Below are positions 39,150 to 42,486 of a DNA stretch of 64,000 nucleotides, piece by piece. This stretch comes from the human T2T-CHM13v2.0 reference genome, Homo sapiens, in assembly GCA_009914755.4 (NCBI GenBank), contig CP068257.2, positions 26,144,001 through 26,208,000 of the forward strand. The letters are read 5' to 3'. The notes beneath the pieces are model-generated. The model was not told the DNA's origin. It searched no databases and worked only from the letters and a program-made list of their open reading frames with translations. Position numbers and translations under genes: made by a program. Each line of letters starts with the position of its first letter. Positions within the stretch are counted from its first letter, which is position 1.

Positions 39150-39482
39150 TCATAGTTTTAAAATTGAACAAAAAAAGACACTTTAAAGATTGTAAGGGTC
39201 TGATTGCCTCAACACCATAACTTAATTAAAAATATTACTGTTGAATCTTATTTGGTTAATTTGTCTGAGACAACTGGACCTGTTGTTTACATGAACTGTC
39301 AGGAAGTATTAAATCAGCCAACTAGTTGCTGCCTAAGACAGCTATGGGAAGCCTGGTTTGCATCAAAAGGTCAACAGGAAGAAACTTATGGAGAATAACA
39401 TGTTATCTGAAGAAGAGAGTGGTATCATTTGCTGCTCTGTGGCTATTCTCTATGCCACATGATGTCAAGGCTTCAACATACT

Positions 39483-39617
39483 TTAAAGTATACATAGAAT
39501 TTTTTCTAAACTTAGAAATTCCATAATGTTGGCTATGGATTTGTCATAGATGACACCTATTATTTTGAGGTATGTTTCTTCAATGCCTAGATTGTTGAGA
39601 GTTTTTATCATGACGGG
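39483..39617 (-). mobile_element. Inverted 5' segment of an L1 (the ORF2 region encoding [11 protein letters not shown]...YDKPTANI), reverse orientation, abutting the forward L1 segment. This is the twin-priming inversion. The left boundary is approximate.
   Basis: The minus-strand reading of 39617 to 39483 gives PVMIKTLNNLGIEETYLKIIGVIYDKSIANIMEF, which matches L1 ORF2 [35 protein letters not shown]. This is the ORF2 segment immediately upstream of where the forward segment starts. Confidence 0.6.
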
Positions 39618-39623
39618 TAAATA

Positions 39624-41710
39624 GGAAGCATTCCCCTGGAGAACTGAAAGAAGAGAAGGATGCCCACTCTCACCACTCCTATTCAACATTGTAAAAAAGT
39701 CCTAGGAAGAGCAATCAGGCAATAGAAAGAAATAAAAGACACGGAAATAATAAACAAGGAAGAAGTAAAAGTACCTCTTTCCACTGACTATATGATTCTA
39801 TAGCTAGAAAAACCTAAAGTTGCTGTCAGAACATTCCTAGAACTGAAAAATGACTTCAGTAAAATTTCAGAACACAAAATCAACGCAAAAAATTCATAGT
39901 ATTTCTCTATACCAATATTGTTTAAGCTGAGTGAAATCCAGAACACAATCTCATTTACAATAGCCACAAACAAATGAAATATCTAAGAATACAGCTAACA
40001 AAGGAGGTAAAAGGTCTCTACAAACAGAATTATAAAATACTGATGAAAGAAACCATAGATGACACAATAAATGCAAAATATTTCATGGTCATGGATTGGA
40101 AGAATCAATATTATTAAAATGACCATACTACCCCAAACAATCTACAGATTCAACACTACTTCTATCAAACTACCAATGTGACTTTTAAGAGAATTAAAAA
40201 ATAATTCTAAAATTCATATGGAACGGTAACAACAACAAAAAGCAAATAGCCAAAGAAATCCCAGGCAAAAGAACAAAGCCAGCGCTATCACACTACCTGA
40301 CTTCAAACTGAACTATAAGTCTACGAGAACCAAAACAGTATGGTACTAACACACAAAAAAACAGACATATAGACCCATACAAGAGAATAGAGAACTCAGA
40401 AATAAAGCCACACACCTACAACTATTTGATCTTTGTCAAAGTCAACAAAACAAGTGATGGGAAAAATACTTCCTATTCAATAAATGGTGCTGGGATAGCT
40501 GGCTAGCTATATGCAGAAGAATGAACCATAACCTTTCACCATGTACAAATACTAACTCAAGATGGATTAAAGATTTAAATGTAAGACCTCAAATTATAAA
40601 ATTCCTAAAAAAAAAGTAGAAAATACCCTTCTTGGCATTGGCCTTGGCAAAGAATTTCTGGTCATGTCTTCAAAAGTAATTGCAATAAAAACAAATGCAG
40701 ACAAGTGGGACCTAATTAAACTAAAGCACTTCTGCACAGCAAAGGAAAGTATAAATAGAGTAAATAGGAACCCACAGAATTGGAGAAAATATTCAAAACT
40801 ATGCACCTGCAAATGTCTAATATCCAGAATCTACAAGCAACTAAAAAAAAAACAAGCAAAAAACAAATAACTTTATTAAACAATAGGCAAAGGATATGAA
40901 TAGACACTTCTCAAAAGATTACATACAAGTGGTCACTAACATATGAAAAAATGCCCCACATCTCTATTCATCAGGGAAATGCAAATCAAAACCACAATGA
41001 GATGCCATGTCAACCAGTCAGAATAGTTATTATTAAAAACTAAAATATGACAAATGCTAGTTAGGTTGTAGAGAAAAATGAACATTTATACATTGTTGGT
41101 GGAAATGTAAGCTAATTCAGCCACTGTGGAAAGCAGTTTGGAGATTTCTTAAAGAACTTAAAACATCCATTTGACTCAGCAATGTCATTACTCAGTATAT
41201 ACCAAAGAAAAGTAGATCATTCTACCAAAAAGACACTTGCACTGACATGCTCATCAAAGCACTATTCACAATAGCAAAGATATGGAATCAACTTAGGTGC
41301 GCATCAATGGTGTATTGGATAAGGACAATGTGGTGCATATACAGCATGGAGTACTAGGTCATTATATGAAAGAAAGGAATCATCATTTACAGCAACATGG
41401 ATGCAGCTGGAGACCTCTATCCTAGGTGACTTAATATGGGATTAGAAAAACAAGTACCGTATGCTTTCACTTTAAGTGGGAGTGAAGCATTGAGTACACA
41501 TGGACATAAAGATGGCAACAATAGGCACTGGAGACTACTGGCGGGGGAGGAAGTGGGGTGTGGTTTGAAAACTCTCTATTGGGTATGATGCTCACTACTG
41601 GGTGGTGGAATCCATGCCACAAACTCAGCATCATGCAATTTACCCATGTGGCAAACCTGTACATGTACCCCCTGAATCTAGAATAAATGTTGAAATTAAA
41701 AAAAAATAAA
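39624..41710 (+). mobile_element. Old L1 (L1MA/L1PB-like), 3' part. It runs forward from ORF2 EAFPLKTG.. through the RT and C-terminal domains and the 3'UTR to the A-rich tail.
   Basis: ggaagcattcccctggagaactg... translates as EAFPLRTGKRRKDAHSHHSYSTL.KVLGRAIRQ.KEIKDTEI.NKEEVKV, matching L1 ORF2 [40 protein letters not shown]. Downstream motifs: 39940-40200 ...KYLRIQLTKEVK.LYKQNYKILMKE...; 40440-40560 [36 protein letters not shown]; 40870-41000 ...HFSKDYIQVVTNI.KNAPHLYSSGKCKSKPQ.DAMSTSQNSYY.KLKYDKC.. It ends ...gaatctagaataaatgttgaaattaaaaaaaaataaa. Confidence 0.85.
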
Positions 41711-42486
41711 TTCCATGATGATTCCAGCATTATGTCACTATCCTTCTAAAAGCATGCTGCAAATTTCCAATCATTTCTGAATTAAACTCTCCAAGAAAAT
41801 TGTCCTGTAAAATTTCTTTTATTCTGTTATACACATACACACACATTTTTATCTTTTAGATATTTTAAAGAAAACATTTCATAAATGTATTTTAATGTAG
41901 ACCAGGATATTTGTACAATAACTGTACACTTGGAATTTGTACTGTCAGAAAAAGAAGTTATTTTTGAGTGAGTACTTCTTCAACCCATTCTCTTTCATTT
42001 TCATGGTATATAAAAGCTTTTTCTTTATGTTAAAATGTTTTATGAAGTATATGTCTCTTAAGATACTGTACAATTCTCATTACCCTGACCATTGTACCAG
42101 TCATAAAATGTGATCTTGAGAAGTTCCTTAAACCCTCTGTGATTCCTCTTTTGTTGCTGTTTTGTTTGTAATTGTCTGGGGTCTACACCCCAGACAGATA
42201 GGTACTACAAAAGCACCTATCTCATAGGTTACCTGTAAGTTTGTCATGAGATGCTACAAATAAGCGTTTAAAAATGTTCCAAGCATCAAATCACTTTACA
42301 GTATAAGTTAGTTGATTTTATCAATGAGTTTAGACCCCCTTCATACCTGGCACAACACACACAGCAAACCATCCATCAATAGTTTCCGAACAACTCAATG
42401 TGTTATCATATGTATGCTATGACTCATAAATAAACTACTTCTTTGAAAGTTTCTCAAAAAAGATATTGCCTAAGTAATATAAAGGC

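What the first reader, a model, noticed from the sequence alone, without database searches (positions are those of the whole stretch)
39460..41715. L1 insertion with a 5' inversion junction diagnostic of twin priming
From 39624 to 41710 an old L1 runs in forward orientation, from ORF2 codons EAFPLKTG... through the 3'UTR to an A-rich end. Immediately upstream, the segment 39483-39617 is L1 ORF2 in the opposite orientation. Read on the minus strand it encodes PVMIKTLNNLGIEETYLKIIGVIYDKSIANI..., which is the ORF2 block ([35 protein letters not shown]) lying directly 5' of EAFPL in an intact L1.

The inverted piece is oriented so that its L1-upstream end (cccgtcatg, equivalent to cccttcatg) abuts the junction. 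Its L1-downstream end points into the left flank. The two segments' L1 coordinates meet or slightly overlap (ggaagcattccc), with 6 bp of filler (taaata) at the junction.

This is the geometry expected from twin priming during target-primed reverse transcription, as established by Ostertag and Kazazian (2001). It is not a simple inversion or two independent insertions. It is a clean, readable example, and the short inverted arm of about 135 nt makes the junction easy to see.
Basis: partly seen in the sequence, partly recalled or inferred. Interest (0 to 1): 0.5.

Follow-up and report, generated by a model that had tools for sequence, protein, structure and literature searches.

The report
Old L1 with twin-priming 5' inversion
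This is one old, dead L1 retrotransposon copy in primate DNA whose first 95 bases were inserted backwards, the well-known signature of "twin priming"; it is a clean example of an ordinary event seen in about a fifth of L1 insertions.

Summary
The core observation holds. Window 39523-39617 is L1 ORF2 on the minus strand (human ORF2p residues 611-642). From 39624, L1 runs forward from residue 649 through the 3'UTR to a short A-tail at 41698-41706.

Against a full-length L1 fetched here (L031), the arms map to 3968-3873 (-) and 3987-5944 (+). That leaves 18 L1 bases missing between them. The geometry is the one twin priming predicts.

Three details were wrong:
- The inverted arm is 95 nt, not about 135. 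Positions 39483-39522 are flank, not L1.
- The arms do not overlap.
- The proposed left 'catgatg' duplication at 39458 is a chance match (P about 0.11).

The real target-site duplication is AAATTCCATAATG (39516-39528) and AAATTCCATGATG (41708-41720). It matches at 12 of 13 positions (empirical P about 1.6e-4) and brackets the whole composite. Neither arm has a duplication of its own.

The last 6 bases of the duplication (ATGATG) are the reverse complement of L1 CATCAT, exactly where the inverted arm begins. This is the microhomology expected for internal priming by the top-strand overhang.

Both arms diverge similarly from a rough L1 consensus (85% against 78-81%). No further L1 lies upstream.

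Verdict: interpretation supported, phenomenon already known, low interest.

The parts
39516..39528 (+). Left copy of the target-site duplication, AAATTCCATAATG. It may start at 39514 as AGAAATTCCATAATG. Its last 6 nt (39523-39528) are shared with the inverted L1 arm.
   Evidence: the repeat finder family D11. It is the best match between the 30-nt boundary zones: 13 nt with 1 mismatch, empirical P 1.6e-4; 9 nt exact, P 0.002.
39523..39617 (-). Inverted L1 ORF2 segment of 95 nt. It covers ORF2p residues 611-642 and L031 L1 coordinates 3874-3968. This is the internally primed cDNA.
   Evidence: PDB ORF2p match, E about 4e-6; tblastn; blastn to the in-window L1, 82%, E 1e-21; blastn to full-length L031, 79%, E 7e-19; alignment A1.
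39523..39528 (.). Microhomology zone, ATAATG now and ATGATG originally. It belongs both to the target-site duplication and to L1, as the reverse complement of consensus CATCAT. This is the inferred annealing site of the top-strand 3' overhang on the L1 RNA.
   Evidence: The right duplication copy reads ATGATG. Intact L1 copies read CATCAT at this position. A single G>A change at 39525 explains the one mismatch in the duplication.
39618..39623 (.). Internal junction, 5-6 nt TAAATA of unassignable origin. It is either filler or badly decayed L1.
   Evidence: An anchored alignment to the L1 consensus upstream of GGAAGC scores no better than random 24-mers (P=0.72). blastn leaves 39619-39623 unaligned.
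39624..41697 (+). Forward (non-inverted) L1 segment: ORF2 from codon 649 to the end, decayed with many stops and frameshifts, plus the 3'UTR. This is the poly(A)-primed cDNA.
   Evidence: PDB ORF2p 649-671. Collinear tblastn hits to ORF2p 650-1275. blastn to L031 3987-5944. The 3' terminus matches the L009 L1 3' end.
41698..41707 (+). Remnant poly(A) tail: 9 A followed by a T.
   Evidence: Read directly from the sequence. Aligned to the A-tail of the L009 L1 3' end.
41708..41720 (+). Right copy of the target-site duplication, AAATTCCATGATG. It may start at 41706.

Best explanation
A single L1 retrotransposition event in a primate ancestor inserted about 2.2 kb of one L1 RNA by twin priming.

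Inferred steps, following the published model:
1. L1 endonuclease nicked the bottom strand at the A-rich left edge of the target ...CTTAG|AAATTCCATGATG|ATTCC...
2. The T-rich 3' end primed on the poly(A) tail and was extended back through the 3'UTR and ORF2 to about codon 649. This made the forward arm.
3. After the staggered top-strand cut 13-15 bp downstream, the top-strand 3' overhang ...CCATGATG-3' annealed to the same RNA at 5'-CAUCAU-3' (codons 640-642). That site is 18 nt upstream of where the first cDNA ended.
4. The overhang primed a second, short cDNA of about 90 nt, back to codon 611. This made the inverted arm.
5. The two cDNA 3' ends were joined without detectable microhomology and with 5-6 nt of filler. 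Fill-in then produced the 13-bp target-site duplication around the composite.

What is shown here: the orientation and L1 coordinates of both arms, the duplication, the 6-nt microhomology, and the absence of separate duplications or of further L1 upstream.

What is inferred: the order of events and the enzymology. The element is long dead and has no function.
For: - Arm identities and coordinates: inverted arm = ORF2p 611-642 = L031 3968-3873 on the minus strand. Forward arm = ORF2p 649 onward = L031 3987-5944 on the plus strand. The L1 gap is 18 nt. PMC12016303 reports that 46% of 5'-inverted L1 insertions have their two cDNAs within 20 bp of each other.
- One duplication around the composite: 13 bp, 12/13 matching, P about 1.6e-4. 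The repeat finder listed it independently. Its length equals the reported median of 13 bp.
- No arm-specific duplication. The best matches are 5 nt exact or 6-7 nt with one mismatch, which is null-level (null means 4.65 and 6.5).
- The 6 nt at the 3' end of the duplication are the reverse complement of the L1 consensus exactly where the inverted arm starts. Significant microhomology at the junctions between duplication and insert is reported for the twin-priming-type loci analysed in PMC2837659.
- The arms are equally decayed: 85.3% (81/95) against 78.2% and 81.2% identity to a consensus of 11 L1 copies, Fisher P 0.14 and 0.39.
- There is no ORF1 or N-terminal ORF2 homology, and no other L1 DNA, left of the element. 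It is therefore not an internal inversion in a longer L1.
- The 3' end carries an A-tail.
Against: - No orthologous empty site could be examined, so a single event is inferred rather than observed.
- The endonuclease site is not canonical: bottom strand ATTT/C for a 13-bp duplication, or TTCT/A for a 15-bp one with a second mismatch.
- The internal junction shows no microhomology and has 5-6 unexplained bases.
- The age comparison of the arms has little power (95 nt) and uses a crude, mixed-subfamily consensus.
- The inverted arm is much shorter than the reported germline median of 751 bp.
- The duplication copies are better preserved (1 mismatch in 13) than the roughly 15-20% divergence from the crude consensus would suggest. 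That figure probably overstates post-insertion decay.
Confidence: 0.9

Rival explanations
1. Post-insertion inversion. An ordinary 5'-truncated L1, starting at ORF2 codon 611, was inserted by classical target-primed reverse transcription. Later its first ~113 bp were flipped in place by a small chromosomal inversion, which lost 18 nt and gained 6.
For: An in-place inversion of the 5' end gives the same orientation and the same adjacency of L1 coordinates as twin priming. Geometry alone therefore does not exclude it.
Against: - One inversion breakpoint would have to fall exactly at the boundary between the duplication and L1, because no flank DNA is inverted.
- The 6-nt identity between the 3' end of the duplication and the L1 sequence at the far end of the inverted piece would be a coincidence of roughly 0.27^6, about 4e-4 (my estimate from base composition).
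- No inverted repeats that could mediate such an inversion flank the segment.
Confidence: 0.04
2. Two independent L1 insertions. A fragment of an older antisense L1 happened to lie at the spot where a later sense L1 was inserted and 5'-truncated, or the reverse.
For: The window is rich in L1 and Alu, so nested and adjacent repeats are common. The identity of the arms to the consensus differs nominally (85% against 78-81%).
Against: - Neither arm has its own target-site duplication, while the composite has a 13-bp one.
- The antisense piece is an internal 95-nt ORF2 fragment with no 3' end or tail of its own.
- Its L1 coordinate abuts the start of the other arm within 18 nt of a 6-kb element, in the one orientation twin priming predicts. 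The chance of this is under 1% (inference).
- The divergence difference is not significant (P 0.14-0.39).
Confidence: 0.02
3. Second priming on a different L1 RNA molecule (the 'dual priming' idea of Meyer et al. 2010, PMC2837659), or a template switch, rather than on the same RNA as the poly(A)-primed cDNA.
For: PMC2837659 proposes dual priming as a conceivable source of similar architectures. The filler at the internal junction shows that joining was not homology-guided.
Against: - As described, dual priming starts on the poly(A) tail of a second RNA, not internally.
- The internal priming point lies only 18 nt from the end of the first cDNA. This is expected if both RTs worked on one RNA and unexplained if two RNAs were used.
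- Both arms look alike in divergence.
Confidence: 0.03

Closest known systems
5'-inverted L1 insertions made by twin priming (Ostertag & Kazazian 2001, Genome Res 11:2059; described in PMC2837659 and PMC12016303)
   Same: - The composite has an inverted 5' piece and a direct 3' piece with an A-tail.
- The pieces are adjacent in L1 coordinates with a small internal deletion (18 nt).
- One duplication of typical length (13 bp) surrounds both.
- There is microhomology between the target overhang and the L1 sequence at the internal priming site.
   Different: Nothing essential differs. The inverted arm is unusually short (95 nt against a germline median of 751 bp in PMC12016303). The internal junction has 5-6 nt of filler instead of microhomology. 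The endonuclease site is off-consensus.
Ordinary 5'-truncated L1 insertion by classical target-primed reverse transcription
   Same: The forward arm, A-tail and duplication are those of a standard 2.1-kb 5'-truncated L1.
   Different: A classical insertion has no antisense L1 piece between the left duplication copy and the truncated 5' end.
Twin-priming variants with a 5' poly(T), and 'dual priming' (Meyer et al. 2010, PMC2837659)
   Same: Both also invoke priming from both DNA strands at one target site.
   Different: Those loci carry an inverted poly(A) tail (a 5' poly(T) stretch) next to a sense L1. Here the inverted piece is internal ORF2 sequence and there is no poly(T) at the left end.

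Membership tests
Twin-priming (5'-inverted) L1 insertion | Two adjacent fragments of L1 in opposite orientation | tested here: met
   39523-39617/8 maps to L031 on the minus strand and 39624-41558 on the plus strand. Protein-level matches to ORF2p confirm both.
Twin-priming (5'-inverted) L1 insertion | The direct fragment is the 3' part of L1 and ends in poly(A) | tested here: met
   Collinear to the ORF2 end and 3'UTR. The terminus and A-run align with the L009 L1 3' end. The tail is only 9 A long, decayed.
Twin-priming (5'-inverted) L1 insertion | The inverted fragment derives from L1 sequence immediately 5' of the direct fragment, with its L1-downstream end facing the upstream flank | tested here: met
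   Inverted arm = L031 3874-3968, direct arm from 3987. Reading left to right on the plus strand, the inverted arm runs from 3968 down to 3873.
Twin-priming (5'-inverted) L1 insertion | Small deletion or duplication of L1 sequence at the inversion point | tested here: met
   18 nt missing (L031 3969-3986; ORF2p 643-648), with no overlap. This is within the under-20-bp class that holds 46% of cases in PMC12016303.
Twin-priming (5'-inverted) L1 insertion | A single target-site duplication bounds the whole composite, with none around either fragment alone | tested here: met
   13 bp, 12/13 matching, at 39516-39528 and 41708-41720, P about 1.6e-4. The arm-specific searches give only 5-7 nt chance-level matches.
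Twin-priming (5'-inverted) L1 insertion | Microhomology between the 3' end of the top-strand overhang (the duplication) and L1 RNA at the internal priming site | tested here: met
   The duplication ends in ATGATG, and L1 intact copies read CATCAT exactly at the start of the inverted arm. The overlap is 6 nt.
Twin-priming (5'-inverted) L1 insertion | [quoted passage not shown] | tested here: not met
   5-6 nt TAAATA lie between the arms. Extending the forward arm to a shared GGG is not better than chance (P 0.72). PMC2837659 notes that some twin-priming junctions have none.
Twin-priming (5'-inverted) L1 insertion | L1 endonuclease-type target (bottom strand 5'-TTTT/A-3' or a close variant) | tested here: inconclusive
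   The target reads ...ACTTAG|AAATTCC.... This gives ATTT/C for a 13-bp duplication or TTCT/A for a 15-bp duplication with a second mismatch. It is T-rich but not one of the three motifs counted in PMC12016303.
Twin-priming (5'-inverted) L1 insertion | Both fragments of the same age and subfamily (one RNA) | tested here: inconclusive
   85.3% against 78.2% and 81.2% identity to a crude consensus, Fisher P 0.14 and 0.39. This is compatible but low-powered. No subfamily library was available.
Twin-priming (5'-inverted) L1 insertion | Both fragments absent together from the orthologous empty site | not testable with these tools
   No primate genome collection was available.

The most novel reading that the evidence does not exclude
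The point where the first cDNA stopped (L1 ORF2 codons ~643-649, L031 about 3966-3987) might be a preferred reverse-transcriptase pause or 5'-end site, promoting both simple 5' truncation and twin priming. Among the old-type L1 copies fetched at random by a 29-mer 34 nt downstream, one locus (L002/L010, same flank) starts within 0-3 nt of this element's forward-arm start and another (L009) starts about 21 nt upstream. PMC12016303 also reports peaks of breakpoints along L1. This rests on two loci seen post hoc. It could equally be chance or blast end-trimming.
Probability: 0.1. Interest if true: 0.3.

Novelty: already known. Interest (0 to 1): 0.1.

Why it matters
It matters little beyond annotation. 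5'-inverted L1 insertions make up about 18-22% of human L1 insertions (PMC12016303), and the mechanism was proposed in 2001.

The locus is a tidy teaching example. The short inverted arm, the 13-bp duplication and the 6-nt priming microhomology can all be read within about 100 bases. For annotation, the two adjacent opposite-strand L1 hits should be merged into one insertion event rather than counted as two.

Tried and rejected
Protein, tblastn, blastn and MAFFT all stop at 39523. The bases beyond are the duplication and flank.
The left copy at 39458 is 58 bp from the arm, and an exact 7-mer there has P about 0.11.
- Extending the forward arm through 'taaata' to a GGG shared with the inverted arm, which would be a 3-nt junction microhomology. 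This is not better than chance (P 0.72).
- A plus-strand tblastn hit spanning the junction (39562-39693). This is an artefactual leftward extension of the true EAFP... frame.
- Separate duplications for each arm: none found.
- A longer L1 with an internal inversion. There is no ORF1 or N-terminal ORF2 upstream. The only 'L1' hit in the left flank is really an Alu shared with the Alu-interrupted reference copy.
- An Rfam scan of the window found nothing.
- Reading Ostertag & Kazazian 2001 (PMC311219). It is not held, so the model's criteria were taken from PMC2837659 and PMC12016303.
- Subfamily assignment. No repeat library was available. The last ~140 nt of the 3'UTR do not align to the young L1 reference. 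Of these, only the terminal 65 nt match an old copy.
- The breakpoint-hotspot idea. The bacterial-assembly scan returned mostly contig-limited young L1s and added no information.
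Full report
**What is there.** The window is primate DNA. It holds at least 19 Alu copies and several L1 fragments.

In the flagged region the minus strand of 39523-39617 translates without stops to PVMIKTLNNLGIEETYLKIIGVIYDKSIANI(M). A search of the PDB sequences places this on human LINE-1 ORF2p residues 611-642 (8uw3/8sxt numbering, E about 4e-6). At DNA level the same 94-96 nt are 82% identical to an intact L1 elsewhere in the window (10339-10432, E 1e-21). The homology is real.

Starting at 39625, the plus strand reads [23 protein letters not shown], which is ORF2p 649-671. The rest of ORF2 follows collinearly but is riddled with stops and frameshifts. blastn aligns 39624-41558 to L031 3987-5944 in one piece. 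The last 65 nt, up to the A-run, match the 3' end of another old L1 copy, L009. A 9-A remnant tail sits at 41698-41706.

- The inverted arm is 95 nt (39523-39617), not 135. Every method loses the homology at 39523.
- The arms do not meet or overlap. Eighteen L1 bases (L031 3969-3986, codons 643-648 LNGQKL) are absent.
- 5-6 bases (TAAATA, 39618-39623) sit at the junction. Reading them as decayed L1, which would give a shared GGG, is not better than chance (P 0.72).
- The proposed 'catgatg' duplication is wrong on the left. The copy at 39458 lies 58 bp from the arm, and such a 7-mer match arises by chance in about 11% of trials.

**The real target-site duplication.** AAATTCCATAATG (39516-39528) and AAATTCCATGATG (41708-41720) match at 12 of 13 positions. 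The left copy abuts the inverted arm and the right copy abuts the A-tail.
- The repeat finder lists the pair independently as family D11.
- Among 18,351 pairs of 30-mers taken from the window at the same spacing, a match of 13 nt or more with at most one mismatch occurred with frequency 1.6e-4. An exact 9-mer occurred with frequency 0.002.
- A 15-nt version with two mismatches (from 39514 and 41706) is also possible.
- Neither arm alone has a duplication. The best matches are 5 nt exact or 6-7 nt with one mismatch, the null expectation.

**Microhomology at the internal priming site.** Intact L1 copies were fetched from contaminated metagenome and bacterial assemblies, and two more lie in the window. 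They read ...GCCAACATCATACTGAATGGG... across the breakpoint. The inverted arm begins exactly at CATCAT.

The undamaged right copy of the duplication ends in ATGATG, the reverse complement of CATCAT. So the last 6 nt of the target overhang could pair perfectly with the L1 RNA. Extension from that 3' end would copy ...GCCAA upstream. This gives the observed plus-strand sequence ATGATG|TTGGCTATGG, now ATAATG|TTGGC. The single mismatch in the duplication (39525 A against G) is best explained by one later G>A change, because both the right copy and the L1 consensus have G there. By base composition, a 6-nt overlap has a chance probability of roughly 4e-4 (my estimate).

**Same age and no further L1.** Against a majority consensus of 11 L1 copies, the inverted arm is 81/95 = 85.3% identical. 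The forward arm is 78.2% identical over its first 300 nt and 81.2% over about 800 nt. The difference is not significant (Fisher P 0.14 and 0.39). This test is weak, because the arm is short and the consensus mixes subfamilies.

tblastn with ORF1p and the N-terminal 610 residues of ORF2p finds nothing near the element. These two query sequences were written from memory. For the C-terminal part, also written from memory, the numbering of residues 611-671 was checked against PDB alignments. The flanks have no L1 homology. The one apparent hit is an Alu at 38879-39149 matching the Alu that interrupts the reference L1. The structure is therefore not an internal inversion within a longer L1.

**Mechanism.** The anatomy fits twin priming as described in PMC2837659 and PMC12016303. 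The steps are:
1. The bottom strand is nicked and primes on the poly(A) tail, giving the forward cDNA.
2. The top strand is cut 13-15 bp downstream.
3. The top-strand overhang anneals internally to the same RNA and primes a second, antisense cDNA.
4. The two cDNA ends are joined.
5. Fill-in creates a duplication around the composite.

The coordinates, orientation, duplication and microhomology are shown here. The order of events and the enzymes are inferred from the model.

The quantitative features are typical. PMC12016303 reports a median duplication of 13 bp, 46% of inverted insertions with cDNA ends within 20 bp of each other, and 18-22% of L1 insertions carrying 5' inversions.

Three features are atypical but not contradictory. 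The inverted arm is very short (95 nt against a germline median of 751 bp). There is filler instead of microhomology at the internal junction. The endonuclease site is off-consensus (ATTT/C or TTCT/A).

**Rivals.**
- *Later in-place inversion.* This gives the same geometry. However, it needs a breakpoint exactly at the boundary between the duplication and L1, and it makes the 6-nt microhomology a coincidence.
- *Two independent insertions.* These would each need a duplication (none found). They would also need a chance abutment of L1 coordinates within 18 nt of 6 kb in the right orientation.
- *Priming on a second RNA.* This does not explain why the internal priming site lies 18 nt from the end of the first cDNA.

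None of these could be excluded by direct observation of an empty site, which these tools cannot provide.

**Verdict.** The phenomenon is well known and common, so interest is low.

Noticed in passing
window 6516-12467 (+): Near full-length L1 (L031 coordinates 854-6077). ORF1 homology lies at 6662-7664 and ORF2 at 7733-12241. It is interrupted by an unidentified ~450-bp insert (8577-9030) and by an Alu at 9167-9436. It served as the in-window reference copy.
   Followed up: partly
window 8-2879 (+): An older L1 (about 69% identical to L031, coordinates 2381-5253) runs off the left end of the window. Its ORF2 is intact across the breakpoint region used here.
   Followed up: partly
window 49678-50486, 53175-54614, 60455-60835 (all -): Three further 5'-truncated L1 3' fragments lie on the minus strand. 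None has an adjacent opposite-strand partner, so the flagged element is the only 5'-inverted L1 in the window.
   Followed up: partly
window, e.g. 38879-39149 (-), 43044-47844 (six copies): There are 19 Alu-like hits, representing at least 18 copies, which identifies the window as primate. One lies 370 bp left of the element, with a (TTTA)n tail remnant at 38830-38876. There is a dense cluster at 43-48 kb, where GC content rises.
   Followed up: partly
window 55305-55390: A perfect 41-bp tandem duplication (2.1 copies, 100% identical) lies just upstream of an Alu at 55497-55753. This suggests a recent event.
   Followed up: no
window 33146-33252 and 24283-24375: Long dinucleotide microsatellites: (AC) about 53 copies at 90% purity and (AG) about 46 copies at 73%.
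   Followed up: no
L002 about 105, L010 about 190, L009 about 223 (oriented coordinates): Two unrelated old L1 loci from metagenome contigs have 5' ends at L031 3985 (L002 and L010, which share the same flank) and at 3966 (L009). These lie within 0-21 nt of this element's forward-arm start at 3987. L002 and L010 share about 250 nt and then diverge, which suggests a chimeric assembly. This may be a breakpoint hotspot or chance.
   Followed up: partly
L011-L049 (genome contigs): 39 contigs in species-representative 'bacterial' genome assemblies carry a 29-mer from L1 ORF2. Examples are Psychrobacter cibarius, several Mycobacterium and Streptomyces JCM assemblies, and Campylobacter concisus. All but L012, L019 and L029 (89.7-92.4%) are 96.7-99.2% identical to the L031 reference, itself one of the 39, and several are near full-length. 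This is evidently human DNA contamination of those assemblies.
   Followed up: no
window 39562-39693 (+): tblastn reports a plus-strand ORF2p hit (residues 629-671) that runs across the inversion junction into the inverted arm. It is an artefact: the true EAFP... frame is extended leftward through chance matches. It could mislead automatic annotation.
   Followed up: yes
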